Assembly (NCBI RefSeq): GCF_004010195.1
Contig: NC_057718.1
Coordinates: 49,912,791-49,956,573, forward strand
From: Chiloscyllium plagiosum
Lineage: Eukaryota
DNA length: 43,783 nt
Reading direction: 5' to 3'
Below the pieces are notes generated by a model that was not told the origin of the DNA, searched no databases, and was given only the letters and a program-made list of their open reading frames with translations. Position numbers and translations under genes: made by a program. How positions within the stretch are numbered: the stretch's first letter is position 1; every line of letters begins with the position of its first letter. Of this stretch, positions 2,965 through 36,770 are shown one piece after another.

Positions 2965-3225
2965 ATGTTTTTAACAAAGACCTGAATTCTGATCCTGGGC
3001 TGAACATTACAGTGGGGGTGGACTGCTCTCCCTCCAGACAGAAACTGTCTCATCTGTTGCAAGCCTCCCCCACTGATGTAACACACCAAAGGAAAGCCAA
3101 ATGGCCTCATTACAAGATTTATGCTCCTCCTTGGGGAAGCGGTTCTGCCTTTGAGAGCTGCCAGCCAATCAGTTCACCCTCCAGCATCACGCATTCAGTA
3201 ATAGGTGCTGCCATACTGTAGTATA

Positions 3226-3347
3226 TGATGTGAAGATGCCAGTGCTGGACTAGGGTGGATAAGGTCAACAGTCAAAAGACACCAGGTTATAGTCCAACAG
3301 GTTTCTTTGCAATTGCAAGCTTTTGGACGGATGGTTCTTCATCAGGA
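3226..3347 (-). mobile_element. PLE pLTR fragment, family B, degenerate HHR
   Basis: acaccaggttatagtccaacaggttt...aagctttt...cttcatcagg homologous to 19440, 32856 and 33762 copies. Confidence 0.8.
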
Positions 3348-3879
3348 ATGGTGTGATAGGGAGGTATAAGACACAGTATTTATAAGCAAGCATGCCTGAT
3401 GGATGCCATGTACGTCTGGCAGGTTGCACAGGCATTGACAAGGTATTGAATGTCGTGATTCATCCCAGCCACTGCAGTATAATGACTTATGTGCTAGCCA
3501 TCTTGTGTGTTCAAGACCTGTGTGGCGCTAGTGTAGTATGGACATGTTATCACATAATGCTTTTGTTATTAGGGGTGGTTTACATTTGAAAATGCCTTTT
3601 GTTATCCACCAAGTTTATCTTTTGTGGTCAAACTGAATCTTCTCATGTACCTCATCAATATTGTCAGACCATCCCTGAACAATATTGCTCTTTTGTAGCT
3701 GTTGTTTTTGCTTAACTTCAGCAGTAGTTGATTGCAACTGTTCACACTGGATCTGGTCAAAGTGTAACAGATCACCTGTAAGAAACATAAGCACAAAATT
3801 GAGTAGCTCGATCTTTATATGAATTGGATAATCCAATCAGTGCATCAGATGTAATGATCTTGGTACCCTAAATCTAAAG

Positions 3880-8476: not shown

Positions 8477-10197
8477 CAATGTTCGGGAACCCCGCACTTC
8501 CCAAATCTACCTCGTACCCAAGATCAACAAGACTGACCACCCCGGCCAACCCATCATCCCAGCCTGCTCCTGCCCCACCAAATTCATCTCCACCTACCTT
8601 GATACTGTCCTATACCCCCAGTCCAGGATCTCCTCACATATATTTGGGACACCACCCACGTACTCCGCCTCCTCCAAGACTTCTGTTTCCTTAGCCATCA
8701 ACACCCCTCATCTTCACCATAGACATCCAGTCCCTCTACACTTCCATCCGCCAAAACCAGGGCCTCCAAGCTCTCTGTTTCTTCCTCTCCCGACGTCCCC
8801 ATCAGTACCCTTCCACTGACACTCTTATCCATTTGGCTGAACTGGTCCTCACCCACAACAATTTTTCCTTTGAATCCTCGCCCTTCCTCCAGAGCAAAGG
8901 GGTAGCCATGGACACCCACATGGGCCCCAGCTATGCCTGTCTCTTTGTCGGCTACGTAGAACAGTCTATCTTGTGGAGTTACACTGGTACCACTCCCCAC
9001 CTTTTCCTCCACTACATTGATGACTGCATCAGCGCCACCTTGTGCTCCCATGAGGAGGTTGAACAGTTCATCAACTTCACCAACACATTCTACCCAGACC
9101 TTAAATCCACCTGAACCATCTCTGACACATCTCTCCCCTTCCTGGAACTCTCCATCTCCATCAACAATGACTGACTCAACATGGACATTTTCTACAAATC
9201 CACGGACTCCCACTGTTACCTGGATTACACCACCTCCCACTCTGCCTCCTGCAAAAATGCTATCCCCTATTCCTAACTCCTCTGTCTCCACCACATCTGC
9301 TCCCAGAACAGACCCGATGGCCTCCTTCTTTAAAGACTGCAATTTCCCCTTCCAAGTGGTTGAAGATGTCCTCCAATGCATCTCATCCACGTCCCATACC
9401 TCTGCACTTGAACTGTACCCCTCCAGCTGCAACAAGGACAGAATCCCGCTGGTCCTCACCTACCACCCCACAAACCTCCGTATGCATCGCATCATCCTCC
9501 GCCATTTATGCCACCTACAAACGGACCCACACCAGAGATATATTTCCCACCCCACCCTAATCCATTTTCCATAAAGACTGTTCCCTCCACGACTACCTGG
9601 TCAGGTCCATTCCCCCTAACAGCCCAACCTTCCCCCCTGGCACCCTCTCCTGCCACTGCAGGAATTGCAAAACCTGCGCCCACACATCCTCCCTCACCTC
9701 CATCCAAGGTCCCAAAGGAGCCTTCCACATCCATCAAATCTTCACTTGCACCTCCACACATTTACTGCATTTGTTGCTCCCGATGCGGTCTCCTCTACAC
9801 TGGGGAGACTGTATGCCTACTCGCAGAACGCTTCAGAGAATATCTCCAGGACACCTGCACCAATCAACCCCACCACCCTGTGACCGAACATTTCAATTCC
9901 CCCTCCCACTCTGCCGAGGACATGCAGGTCCTGGGCCTCCTCCGTCACCATTTTCTTACCACCCGACGCCTGGAGGAAAAAACCCCTATCCTCTTCTGAA
10001 CTCTTCAACCCCAGGGCATCAATGTGGACTTCACCAGTTTCCTCATTTCCCCTCCCCCCAGTTCCAACCTTTGATGAAGGGCTTTTGCCCGAAATGTTTA
10101 TCTTCCTGCTTCTCAGATGCTGCCTGACCTGATGTGAATTTCCAGCACTACTCTAATCTTGACTCTAATCTCCAGCATCTGCAGTACCCACTTTTGC
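8477..10197 (+). mobile_element. Penelope-like retroelement (Neptune-like), 5'-truncated, decayed RT + GIY-YIG + pLTR
   Basis: GVAMDTHMGPSYACLF and YIDD (RT); Cys linker SCHCRNCKTC; IYCICCSRCGLLYTGET..RFRE (GIY-YIG); pLTR 10071-10197; TSD ccaatgttctgtaca at 8462-8476 and 10198-10212. Confidence 0.93.
10071..10098 (+). ncRNA. Hammerhead ribozyme remnant in family A pLTR
   Basis: TTGATGA-A-GGGC-TTTT-GCCC-GAAA-TGTT; C3 and stem I lost. Confidence 0.65.
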
Positions 10198-11127: not shown

Positions 11128-12090
11128 CTTGAACGAAGTGACCAGGAAGGCTGACGAGGGCAGGACAGTAGACATAGTCTATCTGGATTTCAGTAAGGCC
11201 TTTGATAAGGTTCCACAAAGTAGGATGCTCTGAAGGTTAGATCACCTGGAATCCAGGGGGAGCTGGAAAATTGGATATGAAACTGGCTTGATGGTTGAAA
11301 GCAGAGGGTAATAGTGGAAAGATGCTTGTTGGGTGGAGGCCTGTGACTAGTAGAGTGCCTCATGGGTCAGTGCTGTGCCCATTGCCATTTGTTATCTATA
11401 TTAATGATGTGGGTGAAAGTGTGCAAGGCATGATTAGTAAGTTTGCTGATGACATGAAAATAGGCAGTATTGTGGATAGTGAGGAAGGTTATCAGAAATT
11501 GCAGCAGGACCTTGATCAGCTGGGAAGTGGGTTGAGAAATGGCAAATGAAGTTTAATATAGTTAAGTGTGAGGTCTTGCATTTTGGAAAGTCAAATCAAG
11601 ATATGAATTTCATAGTGAATGGTAGGGCCTTCAGGAGTGTAGTGGAACATAGGGATCTTGGAGTTTAGATTCACAGTTCTCTGCAAGTGGAGTCACAGGT
11701 AGACAGGGCAGTGAGGAAGGCTTTTGGCACATTGGCATTCATCAGTCAGGGCACTGAGTATAGAAGTTGGGAAGCTATGTTGCAGTTATACAGATCGTTG
11801 GTGAGGCTGCACTTGGAGTATTAGGTTCAGTTTTGGTAAACTTGTTATAGGAAGATGTTATTAAACTAGAAAGAGTGCAGAAGAAATTTATAAGGATTTT
11901 CCCTGGACTCAATGGTGTGAGTTATAGGGAGAGGTTGGACAAGCTGGGACTTTTTTTGTTAGAGTGTGGGAGACTAAAGGGGGACCTTATAGAGGTGTAT
12001 AAAATCATGAGACGCATGGATAGGCTGAATGTACTCAGTCTTTTTCCCAGGGTTGGGGAATCAGGGACTAGAGGGCATCAGTTTAAGGTG
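11128..12090 (+). mobile_element. CR1 LINE ORF2 fragment
   Basis: DFSKAFDKVP, VPHGSVLCPL, KFADDMK, LKGDLIEVYKIM, TRGHQFKV. Confidence 0.92.
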
Positions 12091-12368: not shown

Positions 12369-12573
12369 GGTAAAAACAGTGACTACCGATGCTGGAAACC
12401 AGATTCTGGATTAGTGGTGCTGGAAGAGCCCAGCAGTTCAGGCAGCATCCGATGAGCAGTAAAATCGATGTTTCGGGCAAAAGCCCTTCATCAGGAATAC
12501 AGGATTTGATTTTACTGCTCCTCGGATGCTGCCTGAACTGCTGGGCTCTTCCAGCACCACTAATCCAGAATTA
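12369..12573. mobile_element. Palindromic PLE pLTR insertion, family A
   Basis: Inverted arms 12403-12466 and 12508-12571 (1 mismatch); TSD ggttaataa at 12360-12368 and 12574-12582. Confidence 0.9.
12461..12500 (-). ncRNA. Minimal type I hammerhead ribozyme motif, family A
   Basis: GUAUUC-CUGAUGA-A-GGGC-UUUU-GCCC-GAAA-CAUC-GAUU; core intact, stem III palindrome decayed from ACGU to ACAU. Confidence 0.75.
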
Positions 12574-18379: not shown

Positions 18380-19439
18380 AATTACTGAAAATTTAATGGG
18401 AGACCTGTTGCAGTAGTAGGAATATCTAAGGATTTCTTCAAAAAGTATGTAGCATAAAAGGAATTCAGAAGTGTAGATCTTGTTCTTAGGAAGATAGAGA
18501 TGGCTCAAGATAGTTAAACAAATTATTTGATCACTTCTAAAGTGAATTGGATCACTGGGGTTCAAAGCATTTTATCTCAAAGGTAGAAGCATTTTCTTAT
18601 TTTTCTAATTAAGGAGGCAAATCAATTATTTAGAGACATTGCAGTAGTCAGTCATTGGTGCTGACTGGTGATGCAATTTGTCCTCTAGGTGGGCTAACAA
18701 AAAAATAACAATTGGCAGTGCACACCAAAGTTACAGACCAGTTCCCATTAAATAGATTTGGATTTAGATTGACTTAGTAATTGGAGAGGTATAGTTGGAA
18801 CAGTGCAACTAATCCCAACAAAATTTGCTCTTGCACTTGTGATGACTCATCATCAGGCATTAAAGTCAAATCTGTTATATCAGTTTGTTCACCAGATTGT
18901 TTTGGGGTCTGAACAGCTTCAGTTAGAGATTCTTCAATGAATTTAAGTAAGTTTATTGCTCAATCTTACTTCCAGTCTATGTTTCTTCTAATAAACATTG
19001 TTGCTTTTGTCTTCTGAATTTTAATGATCAGAATAAAACACATTACTACCACTCCAGTAGTAAAGCACCCTCACAGAGTTATTTCCTGTGAATAGTATGA
19101 AGTAATTCTTGAATGCCAATATAAGTATTGACAACAGATTCTTGATTCTTTTTGGGTCCAACATCCAATATAAATCCAACACAATTTAAGAAGCCCAAAA
19201 AAATCATCTACTAGTTATTCCCTGACCAGTTACTGGCCAACAGTTGCTCCTGAACCATTCGTTCTAGTTGAACATGTTAGGCACCTTCTGCTACTTCAAG
19301 GACGTTGTGGTCAAGACAAGCATGCAATCTCAAAAATGAGAAATGTTGTTTGTGAATTATGTGTGCACTGTCAATTCTTTTTATACCCTGTGTTGCAGTG
19401 TTACTTGTAACATTTCGATTATCTAACTTTGTCTCTGTA

Positions 19440-19531
19440 CAAAGTTAAAAATCACACAACACCAGGTTATAGTCCAACATGTTTAATTGGAAGCACACTA
19501 GCTTTCGGAGCGACGCTCCTTCATCAGGTGA
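19440..19531 (-). mobile_element. 92-bp PLE pLTR insertion, family B, with 11-bp TSD
   Basis: TSD ttgtctctgta at 19429-19439 and 19532-19542. Confidence 0.9.
19496..19530 (-). ncRNA. Intact minimal type I hammerhead ribozyme motif, family B
   Basis: CAC-CUGAUGA-A-GGAGC-GUC-GCUCC-GAAA-GC-UA^GUG; stem I CAC/GUG, 5-bp stem II, palindromic AGCU stem III. Confidence 0.85.
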
Positions 19532-20295
19532 TTGTCTCTGTAGGCTGTGATCTCTCTTTCTTCAGTCATGGTGTTTGGCCTGATAGGACACCTGCAAGTC
19601 TACTAACATAAAATGAATGAGATATCCATTGACATTTGCAGATTCTATCAAATTTGAGTCAATTGGATCAACAATTTCCAATAGGAATGCATTTGGCATT
19701 TTTTCTAATGTGGGTGGCTCTACTGCATTAAAAACTTTGCTCGAGTCAGTATTACTATGATTCAGGTAAAAATTGAGCCTTTTTTTAAACTTTTAATATC
19801 TGAACTTTAATAACTGGAACTTTTCATGGACTAAAATGCTTTTTTTTAAGTAAAGACTCTGACTGATCCTGTTTATGAAACTATCAATAAACAAGACAGT
19901 CTGCACTGAACTTAAAATGACATCAACATGCCTGAAATTAGTTCCTCCTGTTGATTTACACGTTTCTGAAAATTTCATGAATTGGGATGGAAAGCATAGC
20001 TGCAAATTATCCAGCTTGGAAATAAACAATGAAGCCAATTGTGGAGATAGACAAATTATCCTTATCTCAGACGACAACTTTTGAGCAGCGAAAAGTAAAT
20101 TTTTATCATAAAATTGATTCATAACTGGAAGATTTGCTCATTCGTCTTGTTTCTCTCAGATTCTTTAGAAATGGTACCCAGTAATAAAACAAATTAGAGA
20201 AACTACACTCACTAAGAACTCAAGGATATCTGCACATTTTTCGACCTCTGAGGTGACTGTACATCAAGTAAACAACTATAGTTTCTGTTTAAAAC

Positions 20296-32493: not shown

Positions 32494-32667
32494 ATATGGT
32501 GCTGGAAAAGCACAGCAGGTCAGGGAGCATCTAAAGAGCAGGAGAGTTGACATTTCGGGCAAAAGTCATTCATCGACTCTCCTGCTCCTTAAATGCTGCC
32601 TGACTTGCTTTGCTTCTCCAGCACCACACTCTAATCTCCAGCATCTTCAGTCCTCACTTTCGCCCAA
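32494..32667. mobile_element. Palindromic PLE pLTR insertion, family A
   Basis: tggtgctggaaaagcacagcaggtcag.. inverted against ..ctgacttgctttgcttctccagcacca; TSD ggatcatt at 32486-32493 and 32668-32675. Confidence 0.85.
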
Positions 32668-32855
32668 GGATCATTTATCTCAATCTACAGATTTTGAATT
32701 TAGGCAGAGTTAGGCAAGCTGTGTTTAAAAGCCTGCTCCAGCCTGATTTCCACCAGTTTTGACCCATCTCTGAGATGGTGGCCATTGATACAGGTCTCTC
32801 CCAATATTATCATCTCCTCTGCCATACAACCACCCAACCAAAACAAGCAACTATA

Positions 32856-33067
32856 TGATTTGGAGGTGCCGGTTTTGGGCTGGGGTGTACAAAGTTAAAA
32901 ATCACACAACACCAGGTTATAGTCCAACAGCTTTAATTGGAAGCACTAGCTTTCAGACCACTGCTCCTTAATGGTCCACAACCACCTGATGAAGGAGCGG
33001 TGCTCTAAAAGTTAGTGCTTCCAATTAAACCTGTTGGACTATAACCTGGTGTTGTGTGATTTTTAAC
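32856..33067. mobile_element. Palindromic PLE pLTR insertion, family B, HHR with G12 mutated
   Basis: Arms ~32894-32969 and ~32992-33067; plus-strand CAC-CTGATGA-A-GGAGC-GGT-GCTCT-AAAA-GTTA-GTG; TSD-like aacaagcaactata / aacaaacaaccata. Confidence 0.9.
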
Positions 33068-33761: not shown

Positions 33762-33912
33762 CTGAAAATCACATGACACCAGGTTATAGTCCAACAGGTT
33801 TGTTTGAAAATACAAGCTTTCAGCGCATGGCCCTTCATCAGGTAGCTAGCTGGTGTTGTGTGATTTTCAACTTTGTCCATCCCAATCCAACAGCAGCACC
33901 TCCACATCCTGG
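33762..33912. mobile_element. Partly inverted PLE pLTR insertion, family B variant
   Basis: TSD tttaatctga at 33752-33761 and 33913-33922; minus HHR UAC-CUGAUGA-A..GAAA-GC-UU-GUA at 33811-33844. Confidence 0.85.
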
Positions 33913-35557: not shown

Positions 35558-35744
35558 TGCTCTCCCTCAATGTGTGTGGCACTGGAAAAGCACAGCAGGT
35601 CAGGCAGCATCCGAGGAGCAGGAGAGTCGATGTTTCAGGCATAAGTGCTTCATCAGGAATGTGGCCTGATGAAGGGCTTATGCTCGAAACATTGCTGCCT
35701 GACCTGCTGTGCTTTTCCAGTGCCACACACATTGAGGGAGAGCA
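35558..35744. mobile_element. Palindromic PLE pLTR insertion, family A, two opposed HHR cores
   Basis: Perfect 52-bp arms 35558-35609 and 35693-35744; CTGATGAAG..GAAACAT on both strands at 35630-35692. Confidence 0.9.
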
Positions 35745-36567: not shown

Positions 36568-36770
36568 GAAAATGTGTTGCTGGAAAAGCGCAGCAGGTCA
36601 GGCAGCATCCAAGGAGCAGGAGAATTGACGTTTCGGGCATGAGCCCTTCTTCGGGCTAATGCCCGAAACGTCGATTCTCCTGCTCCTTGGATGCTGCCTG
36701 ACCTGCTGCGCTTTTCCAGCAACACATTTTCAGCTCTGATCTCCAGCATCTGCAGTCCTCACTTTCTCCC
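36568..36770. mobile_element. Young palindromic PLE pLTR insertion with 15-bp TSD
   Basis: TSD ctaaactgtagttct at 36553-36567 and 36771-36785; GCCCGAAACGTC on both strands. Confidence 0.93.

What the first reader, a model, noticed from the sequence alone, without database searches (positions are those of the whole stretch)
19429..19542. Apparently intact minimal hammerhead ribozyme in a 92-bp mobile insert
Seen: the minus strand reads CAC-CUGAUGA-A-GGAGC-GUC-GCUCC-GAAA-GC-UA-GUG. All conserved core bases are present, with a 3-bp stem I, perfect 5-bp stem II and stem III reduced to the palindrome AGCU. It sits in a 92-bp insert with an 11-bp TSD whose 5' end falls just upstream of the motif. 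Known: PLE pLTRs carry minimal type I HHRs proposed to cleave as dimers via a palindromic stem III, and an extra A after A9 is tolerated in a viroid HHR. Inference: predicted cleavage after CUA (between 19499 and 19498), so minus-strand transcripts could be cut in concert with other copies.
Basis: partly seen in the sequence, partly recalled or inferred. Interest (0 to 1): 0.8.

Follow-up and report, generated by a model that had tools for sequence, protein, structure and literature searches.

The report
Dead Penelope retroelement stub with hammerhead
The 92-base insert is a young, cut-down copy of the front end of a Penelope-like jumping gene that carries that family's usual minimal hammerhead ribozyme motif, a kind described in 2014, and this lone copy is probably inert.

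Summary
The minus strand at 19530-19496 reads as a letter-perfect minimal type-I hammerhead. The 92-bp insert and its 11-bp target duplication are real: contigs of a related organism carry the empty site, lacking exactly 103 bp.

The insert is not an element of its own. It is a stub of a very abundant Penelope-like retroelement (PLE) of this shark-like genome. It runs from about 5 nt upstream of the hammerhead to the first of two alternative 3' ends (+90 and +126), the second lying at the element's likely start codon. Longer copies continue upstream into a reverse transcriptase plus GIY-YIG endonuclease frame.

The motif has every published trait of PLE minimal hammerheads: an extra base after A9, G10.1-C11.1, no loop 3, and a palindromic helix III. 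A second, unrelated PLE family nearby keeps the same core with different, co-varying stems.

Within the family the core decays no more slowly than its flanks. None of 129 copies starts at the predicted cut site. Poly(A) RNA reads of the family cross that site with no pile-up of ends there. The nearest intact same-strand partner found lies about 91 kb away.

The kind is known and the interest is low. This scan found the same thing before on other DNA of this genome. A side note: the arm carries an AUUAAA poly(A) signal that RNA reads suggest is used.

The parts
19440..19531 (-). 92-bp stub of a Penelope-like element (family 1). It covers the unit's 5'UTR/pLTR segment from about 5 nt upstream of the hammerhead to the first of two alternative 3' ends.
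   Evidence: 100% identical to other genomic copies. Matches reference offsets -5..+95 of the 5'UTR of a near full-length copy. Absent from organism B contigs.
19532..19542 (.). Target-site duplication, copy at the insert's 5' side (TTGTCTCTGTA on the + strand).
   Evidence: The empty site in organism B keeps one copy. The 4 bp next to the insert also match the element (microhomology).
19429..19439 (.). Target-site duplication, copy at the insert's 3' side.
19496..19530 (-). Minimal type-I hammerhead motif. Helix I 19530-19528 with 19498-19496. CUGAUGA 19527-19521. Extra A 19520. Helix II 19519-19515 with 19511-19507, loop 19514-19512. GAAA 19506-19503. G15.2-C16.2 19502-19501. U16.1-A17 19500-19499. 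Predicted cut between 19499 and 19498.
   Evidence: Sequence. Descriptor hit. Best match of the covariance model, 57.9 bits. Cleavage itself was not tested.
19482..19487 (-). AUUAAA poly(A) hexamer of the arm.
   Evidence: Sequence. 98 of 122 family copies have ATTAAA and 11 have AATAAA.
19467..19470 (-). Place where family RNAs of hammerhead sense end in a poly(A) run.
   Evidence: 265 and 232 first mates of run X21 carry a poly-T loose end just before 19467 and 19470. The reads come from other copies of the family, not from this locus.
19447..19464 (-). GU/U-rich stretch (UGGUGUUGUGUGAUUUUU) just downstream of the poly(A) site. It is a likely downstream element.
   Evidence: Sequence. Its role is inferred from the textbook layout of poly(A) signals.

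Best explanation
The insert is a recent, dead-on-arrival stub of a Penelope-like retrotransposon whose hammerhead motif is the family's ordinary minimal one and is probably inactive at this locus.

Shown: the 92 bp equal the start of the element's unit. In near full-length copies the order is 3'UTR, then hammerhead (offset 0), then AUUAAA (+43), then a first 3' end (about +90), then a 35-bp 'tail', then a second 3' end (about +126) at an ATG that is in frame with the RT/GIY-YIG frame in one copy. A related organism has the empty site.

Inferred: the element's reverse transcriptase likely started at the first internal start site, as shown for the anole element PAc. It likely copied about 92 nt up to the RNA's 5' end or a stop just 5' of the hammerhead. 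The cDNA was likely joined with 4-nt microhomologies at both junctions.

Inferred from the literature: within an active element the motif would cut after GCUA only when two copies in one tandem transcript pair through AGCU to build helix III.
For: Family membership: 53 matches at 97-100% identity, 429 first-look candidates.

Fold-back and long copies with one tailed and one tail-less arm. These are the PLE hallmarks quoted in PMC8557442 (passages read).

Coding link: in L062 the arm lies about 590 nt downstream of frames that hit RVT_1 (E 1.9e-8). The frames also align to the GIY-YIG region 692-784 of the RT+GIY-YIG protein P0010 (E 4e-22). The best homolog is 85% identical and carries a shark name.

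Near full-length copies: the arm runs on into ATGACTACT.... That ATG is in frame with the RT match in L075. Direct hammerheads there lie 3282 nt apart.

Ends of 129 copies: 61 at +80..+102, 60 at +115..+146, 5 run on into the coding frame, 3 other. This matches the two adjacent RT start sites, with the tail between them, of PMC11167929 (abstract and passages read).

Empty site in organism B. Duplications of 11-14 bp in 9 further copies.

Motif traits match PMC4209133. A second PLE family (a GIY-YIG frame followed by the motif in the window and in L042) keeps the core and the extra A with different stems. On 21 distinct matches, 94.0% of cells pair against 72.8% in shuffles (0 of 500 shuffles as high), and 7 of 8 pairs change on both sides.
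Against: 32 of 50 copies picked by the 92-bp query start within -13..+6 of the hammerhead. That is too sharp for random 5' truncation. My account of it (the 5' end of the unit RNA) is untested.

The RT start sites are inferred by analogy with one lizard element.

Pfam's GIY-YIG model does not itself hit the L062 frame.

The covariance-model alignment is fitted to the structure, and its rows are related to one another.

The duplication length is ambiguous, 3-11 bp.

No cleavage assay exists for this motif. The RNA library was poly(A)-primed single-cell, with about 2 in 100 of the run read, and it is poorly suited to seeing cut ends.
Confidence: 0.88

Rival explanations
1. One reading: the motif is a working ribozyme here, and minus-strand transcripts of this locus are cut after CUA in concert with other copies.
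For: The motif is letter-perfect. AGCU is self-complementary. The review PMC6765202 cites PLE hammerheads as cleaving as dimers (passages read). Family RNA of hammerhead sense exists.
Against: No intact same-family partner was found on the same strand within 243.8 kb, apart from one about 91 kb away. A 4-bp helix between separate RNA molecules is very weak. No sampled reads lie on the locus flanks. No pile-up of read ends at 19498/19499, with depth flat at about 750 across it. 0 of 129 genomic copies start at +32. Published in vitro activity is low even for dimers (PMC4209133). Hammerhead mutants insert normally in vitro (PMC11167929).
Confidence: 0.05
2. The 92-130-bp unit is a non-autonomous element in its own right (retrozyme- or SINE-like) that borrows the PLE machinery, rather than a truncated PLE copy.
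For: A sharp common 5' boundary in 32 of 50 copies and two sharp 3' ends. Very high numbers of short copies and head-to-head pairs. Animal retrozymes are reported as PLE derivatives (bioRxiv 10.64898/2026.07.22.740005, abstract and Results read).
Against: Its sequence is the 5'UTR of near full-length coding copies. 73 of 129 copies continue 40 nt or more into the 3'UTR. No head-to-tail tandem arrays were seen in the loci read. Short run-off cDNAs from an internal RT start site explain the same boundaries.
Confidence: 0.06
3. A chance hammerhead look-alike inside an unrelated repeat (MITE or SINE).
For: No Rfam match. The monomer fold is no better than shuffles (z -1.09 and -1.29). No excess conservation of the core within the family.
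Against: 0 of 100 and 0 of 20 simulations give a hit. Every published PLE trait is present. The same architecture, with co-varying stems, occurs in a second PLE family. There is a direct link to an RT/GIY-YIG frame.
Confidence: 0.01

Closest known systems
Minimal hammerheads (min-HHR) in the pLTRs of metazoan Penelope-like elements (Cervera & De la Pena 2014, PMC4209133; parts 1-2 read)
   Same: Type-I core. No loop 3 and a palindromic 15.2-16.2. An unpaired base between A9 and G10.1. A G10.1-C11.1 pair. A very short helix I. Mostly solo copies, or pairs on opposite strands 100-700 bp apart. Location next to an RT/GIY-YIG frame.
   Different: Helix II here is 5 bp (4 bp in family 2), against the 7-8 bp reported for Schistosoma. 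The host is a shark-like genome, which that paper does not name (it lists fishes, coelacanth, Xenopus and reptiles).
PAc, Poseidon element of Anolis carolinensis (Frangieh et al. 2024, PMC11167929; abstract and passages read)
   Same: Hammerhead near the start of the unit. Two adjacent internal RT start sites downstream of it, with the 30-40-bp 'tail' between them. Genomic copies end at those sites. No RNA-seq ends at the hammerhead cut site.
   Different: In PAc the ORF begins inside the hammerhead and the start sites lie 111-118 bp into the ORF. Here the likely ATG lies at +124, at the second 3' end. The start sites here are inferred from where copies end, not measured.
PLE insertion architecture (Craig et al. 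2021, PMC8557442; passages read)
   Same: Heavy 5' truncation, partial tandems, an adjacent inverted 5'-truncated copy, and a tail at one end only.
   Different: Nothing of note. The window copy is a solo arm without a partner or a tail.
Animal non-LTR retrozymes (Cervera & De la Pena 2020, PMC7229834, listing and abstract only; Li et al. 2026 preprint, abstract and Results read)
   Same: Short non-coding hammerhead-bearing sequences related to PLE pLTRs.
   Different: Retrozymes are head-to-tail tandem arrays with canonical type-I hammerheads and give circular RNAs. No such arrays or back-joined reads were seen here.
Extra A10 in the plus hammerhead of chrysanthemum chlorotic mottle viroid (De la Pena & Flores 2001; known to me only through its citation in PMC4209133 and from recall)
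   Same: One unpaired base between A9 and G10.1.
   Different: That is a type-III viroid hammerhead with full helices. It is unrelated in origin.

Membership tests
PLE minimal hammerhead (min-HHR) | Conserved core CUGANGA ... GAAA ... UH in type-I order | tested here: met
PLE minimal hammerhead (min-HHR) | [quoted passage not shown] | tested here: met
   A at 19520; G19519 pairs with C19507. The same holds in families F1b, F2a and F2b.
PLE minimal hammerhead (min-HHR) | No loop 3; positions 15.2-16.2 palindromic, so that two copies can build helix III | tested here: met
   AGCU in family 1, ACGU in family 2. Dimer formation itself was not shown: the co-fold was uninformative.
PLE minimal hammerhead (min-HHR) | Helices I and II supported by compensatory changes between families | tested here: met
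   7 of 8 pairs change on both sides, and 94.0% of cells pair against 72.8% in shuffles. The alignment is fitted to the model. Within family 1 there are only 3 double-change cells among 110 copies.
PLE minimal hammerhead (min-HHR) | Lies in the terminal repeat (pLTR) of an element that encodes RT plus GIY-YIG endonuclease | tested here: met
   L062, L075, L076, L067. The window copy itself is a coding-free stub.
PLE minimal hammerhead (min-HHR) | Self-cleavage after H17, as a dimer | not testable with these tools
   Only indirect data: no pile-up of read ends at the site, and 0 of 129 copies start there.
Rfam hammerhead families (type I, II, III, HH9, HH10; names recalled) | Score at or above the curated threshold of a hammerhead covariance model | tested here: not met
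   No match at gathering score in the window, nor at E<=10 in 19350-19650. I take this to reflect the missing helix III and the extra base.
Animal non-LTR retrozyme | Head-to-tail tandem repeats of a short hammerhead-bearing unit | tested here: not met
   The window copy is solo. The pairs seen are head-to-head. TRF finds no such array in the window.
Penelope-like element insertion | Variable 5' truncation, an adjacent inverted copy, a 30-40-bp tail at one end, and a target duplication | tested here: met

The most novel reading that the evidence does not exclude
The PLE arm is a compact processing module. The hammerhead cut site lies only about 30 nt upstream of a poly(A) site that is used in vivo (AUUAAA, then 13-15 nt, then a GU-rich stretch), and upstream of both RT start sites. 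Dimer cleavage would then remove the poly(A) tail. That would switch an RNA between a translated mRNA and a non-adenylated form. The swarm of 92-130-bp stubs would be run-off cDNAs made when the RT starts on the 5'UTR copy of its start site in ordinary unit-length mRNAs.
Probability: 0.1. Interest if true: 0.45.

Novelty: new member of a known kind. Interest (0 to 1): 0.15.

Why it matters
It matters little in itself. It is one more copy of a ribozyme class described in 2014, in a genome where this scan has already met it many times.

It is useful as a clean natural example. There is an empty site in a related organism and an exact 103-bp gain. The bimodal 3' ends reproduce, in a shark-like genome, the two-start-site 'tail' rule measured in vitro for a lizard element.

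The genomic copies and the RNA reads also agree with the published view that uncut RNA is the transposition template. The poly(A) signal inside the arm means every such stub can bring a polyadenylation site into a host gene.

Tried and rejected
Rfam: no match at gathering score in the window, nor at E<=10 around the motif.

Pfam GIY-YIG against the whole genome: only 1 weak match, with 150 of 14,403 candidates scored. This was useless for finding PLEs. I walked upstream from the repeat instead.

Folding: the monomer (42 nt) has z -1.09 and the 96-nt arm z -1.29. That gives no thermodynamic support.

Dimer co-fold: the predicted duplex ran through the self-complementary helix II. An AGCU-to-AGGU control gave the same gain (-12.1 kcal/mol). 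It therefore says nothing about an AGCU helix III.

Within-family conservation: the core (non-CpG) diverges 2.8% against 2.9% for the arm, and CpG sites 12.6%. I reject this as a test of function, because dead copies drift.

RNA: no RNA holder is listed for the locus. Run X22 laid 0 reads, which is no test. No cover of the flanks in X21.

Host gene: 136 window frames of 75 aa or more were scanned (60 proteins, of which some came from loci, and 76). They gave only RT and GIY-YIG fragments and no host-gene domain above cut-off.

MAFFT alignment of the two families mis-set the 3' half by one column. I used a covariance-model alignment instead.

Lunse, Weinberg & Breaker 2016 (dimer cleavage of PLE hammerheads) is not held. 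I saw it only as a citation in PMC6765202.

No supplementary files were consulted. The hammerhead alignments of PMC4209133 (its supplementary figures S2-S5) might already hold a cartilaginous-fish example.

Searches for a shark PLE hammerhead in print and for a pLTR poly(A) signal (passages) found none. One search was swamped by papers on hammerhead sharks.

Full report
OBSERVATION. The minus strand of the window reads CAC-CTGATGA-A-GGAGC-GTC-GCTCC-GAAA-GC-TA-GTG at 19530-19496. The 11-mer TACAGAGACAA (minus-strand reading) stands at 19542-19532 and at 19439-19429, around 92 bp (19531-19440). A strict descriptor was written: core CUGANGA/GAAA/UH, an optional bulge after A9, helix II of 4 bp or more, a Watson-Crick 15.2-16.2 pair without a loop, and helix I of 3 bp or more. 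It finds this site alone in the window, and nothing in 100 first-order Markov simulations of the window. Rfam finds nothing, even at E<=10. The 42-nt monomer folds no better than shuffles (z -1.09).

THE INSERT IS A PIECE OF A BIGGER REPEAT. The 92 bp recur at 97-100% identity across the 3.56-Gb genome. There are 53 listed matches and 429 first-look candidates, of which 40 were scored. Reading the flanks of 30 loci and their inverted repeats shows three forms. Many copies continue upstream. Many are head-to-head pairs whose two arms meet just 5' of the motif. In pairs and long fold-backs, one arm ends near ...TTTTTAAC(TTTGTACA), while the other runs about 35 bp further, to ...GGCATCTCCGAATCA.

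Walking upstream leads through about 590 nt of non-coding sequence and a CA-rich stretch into coding frames. In locus L062 one frame hits RVT_1 (E 1.9e-8, above cut-off). The last frame aligns to residues 692-784 of P0010 (E 4e-22). P0010 is a protein that Pfam reads as RVT_1 plus GIY-YIG, with the GIY-YIG domain at 695-760. Pfam's GIY-YIG model itself does not hit the L062 frame. The best database homolog is 85% identical and is named from a shark. Searched against the genome, it gives 78 listed matches among 103,424 first-look candidates, 69 of them scored.

In three near full-length copies the arm is the 5' end of the unit. After the 'tail' the sequence runs straight on into ATGACTACT.... 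That ATG is in frame with the RT match in L075, though a stop interrupts it after 127 codons. In the same copy two direct hammerheads lie 3282 nt apart.

ENDS. A reference was taken from L075 and compared with all loci and the window. This gave 129 alignments covering the arm.
- 3' ends are bimodal: 61 at +80..+102 and 60 at +115..+146 (offsets counted from the first base of helix I). Five run on into the coding frame and 3 fall elsewhere.
- 5' ends: 73 extend 40 nt or more into the 3'UTR, 44 fall at -13..+6, 12 fall elsewhere, and none falls at the predicted cut site (+32).
- In the subset chosen only by the 92-bp query (L002-L030; 50 alignments), 32 start at -13..+6, 17 are long and 1 is other. 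The 3' ends split 25 to 25.

This is the pattern described for Penelope-like elements: 5' truncation, an adjacent inverted copy, and a 30-40-bp tail at one end (PMC8557442, passages). It also fits the in vitro result that a PLE reverse transcriptase starts at two adjacent internal sites, with the tail lying between them (PMC11167929, abstract and passages).

Target duplications of 11-14 bp flank nine further copies. For the window copy, 4 bp at each junction (ACAA and TACA) match both target and element. The duplication is therefore 3-11 bp by sequence alone.

EMPTY SITE. Contigs from DNA runs of coded organism B join 19430/19431 directly to 19534/19535 (X18 record 17, 1710 nt; X20 record 24, 2040 nt). 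The flanks differ from the window at roughly 9-11 places per 300 bp. Contigs of organism A run from each flank into the insert. The insertion is therefore real, adds exactly 103 bp, and is younger than the split between the two organisms.

IS THE HAMMERHEAD MORE THAN A LOOK-ALIKE? The motif shows each trait that Cervera and De la Pena list as emerging beyond their own descriptor (PMC4209133): a base between 9 and 10.1, G10.1-C11.1, and a palindromic 15.2-16.2.

In 186.5 kb of loci the descriptor finds 61 motifs. Of these, 58 are family-1 variants and 3 belong to a second family, CTGATGA-A-GGGC-TTTT-GCCC-GAAA-CG-TC. In 243.8 kb around the window (19.9 kb of it N) it finds 12, against 0 in each of 20 simulations. 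One is family 1. One is a sub-family with helix I UAC/GUA. Ten belong to family 2, which has helix I AUUC/GAAU, helix II GGGC/GCCC, helix III ACGU and H17 = C.

Family 2 follows a GIY-YIG frame both in the window (frames at 8695-9111 and 9412-9996, decayed motif at 10071-10098) and in L042. Its endonuclease piece is about 41% identical to that of family 1.

A covariance model was built from three family-1 motifs. It found 23 matches in the 243.8 kb. On their alignment, 94.0% of cells pair against 72.8% in shuffles (0 of 500 as high) and at most 48.9% with slid partners. Seven of 8 pairs show changes on both sides. That alignment is fitted to the model and its rows are related, so these figures lean towards the structure.

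Inside family 1 there is no sign of selection. Of 110 copies covering the motif, 52 pass the strict test and 78 have an untouched core. Divergence is 2.8% for non-CpG core positions, 2.9% for the rest of the arm, and 12.6% at the three CpGs. That is what neutrally decaying dead copies should show.

RNA. One poly(A) single-cell RNA run of the same species label (X21, about 2 in 100 of it read) gave 1075 reads. All lie on the 92-bp repeat only, and none on the flanks. They therefore come from other copies. Three variant positions at 9-19% show that several sources contribute. First mates lie mostly on the + strand, so the RNA has hammerhead sense.

Depth is flat (about 730-760) from 19471 to 19521, across the predicted cut. 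The table of places where molecules begin or end is empty. 504 reads run on 5'-wards into the family's 3'UTR sequence. 497 first mates carry a poly-T run just before 19467 or 19470. The RNAs therefore end in poly(A) 13-15 nt after AUUAAA (19487-19482) and just before UGGUGUUGUGUGAUUUUU. About 100 reads continue towards the tail.

Among 122 genomic copies the hexamer is ATTAAA in 98 and AATAAA in 11. The other 13 carry twelve other variants, none seen more than twice. I read this as a working poly(A) signal in the arm. The role of the GU-rich stretch is inferred from textbook knowledge. The library cannot readily reveal cut ends, so the absence of ends at the cut site is weak evidence.

MECHANISM. 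The stub is best read as follows. The PLE reverse transcriptase started at the first internal site (about +90). It copied about 92 nt, to a point just 5' of the hammerhead. It was joined with microhomology at both ends. All three steps are inferred.

The hammerhead came along as a passenger. Its nearest intact same-strand relative is about 91 kb away. The other family-1 copies in the window are decayed.

For the active element I take the published model: weak self-cleavage of tandem transcripts by two motifs pairing through AGCU. I hold it with modest confidence, for two reasons. Neither the genomic copy ends nor the RNA reads here show any trace of cutting. And hammerhead mutants insert normally in vitro (PMC11167929).

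KNOWN OR NEW. The class is in print: PMC4209133, the review PMC6765202, and Lunse et al. 2016, which I saw only as a citation. Earlier agents of this scan reported the same class repeatedly in this genome. I used those notes as leads and re-tested the coding link and the unit start myself. My searches found no paper on a shark example and none on a pLTR poly(A) signal. No supplements were read.

Noticed in passing
window 19447-19487 (-), and family copies in loci L002-L077: The arm carries AUUAAA, a poly(A) addition site 13-15 nt later, and a GU/U-rich stretch. About 500 poly-T-bearing first mates of RNA run X21 end there. Across 122 copies, AATAAA (11) is the only alternative to ATTAAA seen more than twice. 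Family 2a arms carry AATAAA about 50 nt after their cut site. Each stub could therefore bring a polyadenylation site into a host gene.
   Followed up: partly
window 8695-10098 (+): A degraded Penelope-like element of a second family: a weak RVT_1 frame (8695-9111), a weak GIY-YIG frame (9412-9996), then a decayed family-2 hammerhead (10071-10098). This region also shows the window's strongest GC-skew anomaly (8-10 kb: GC 0.50, skew -0.47).
   Followed up: partly
window 35629-35693; also 36627-36654 (-), 32549-32576 (-), 12467-12494 (-): Decayed family-2 hammerhead arms. The pair at 35629-35656 (-) and 35666-35693 (+) is a head-to-head fold-back.
   Followed up: partly
window 32855-33067, 33765-33911, 3179-3389: Older family-1 copies. 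There is a head-to-head pair (88% and 93% identity to the reference), a second broken pair, and a 71% copy that runs on past the tail. All have damaged hammerhead cores.
   Followed up: partly
loci L002-L030 (offsets -13..+6 from helix I): 32 of 50 copies begin within a few bases 5' of the hammerhead. This is much too sharp for random truncation and is not the ribozyme cut site. It may mark the 5' end of the unit RNA.
   Followed up: partly
L067 (G000:C6:39617210-39622123), about 541-680 of the locus: The upstream arm of a near full-length family-1 copy starts inside the arm, at CCAATTAAAC. It is directly preceded by a family-2 arm with its hammerhead. This looks like a chimera of two PLE families, possibly a template switch.
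   Followed up: no
L062 4075-4715 (G000:C1:30374500-30381700): The CA-rich part of the element's 3'UTR is expanded here into a long array. It reads as a repeated 8-residue frame, a period of about 24 nt. This region also interrupts BLAST-based tracing of the element.
   Followed up: no
window 11292-11546 (+): A further reverse-transcriptase fragment (RVT_1, E 1.4e-5, below cut-off). Its element type was not determined.
   Followed up: no
window 19150-19850 versus organism B contigs: The flanks differ at about 9-11 places per 300 bp between the two coded organisms. That gives a rough upper age for the insertion.
   Followed up: no
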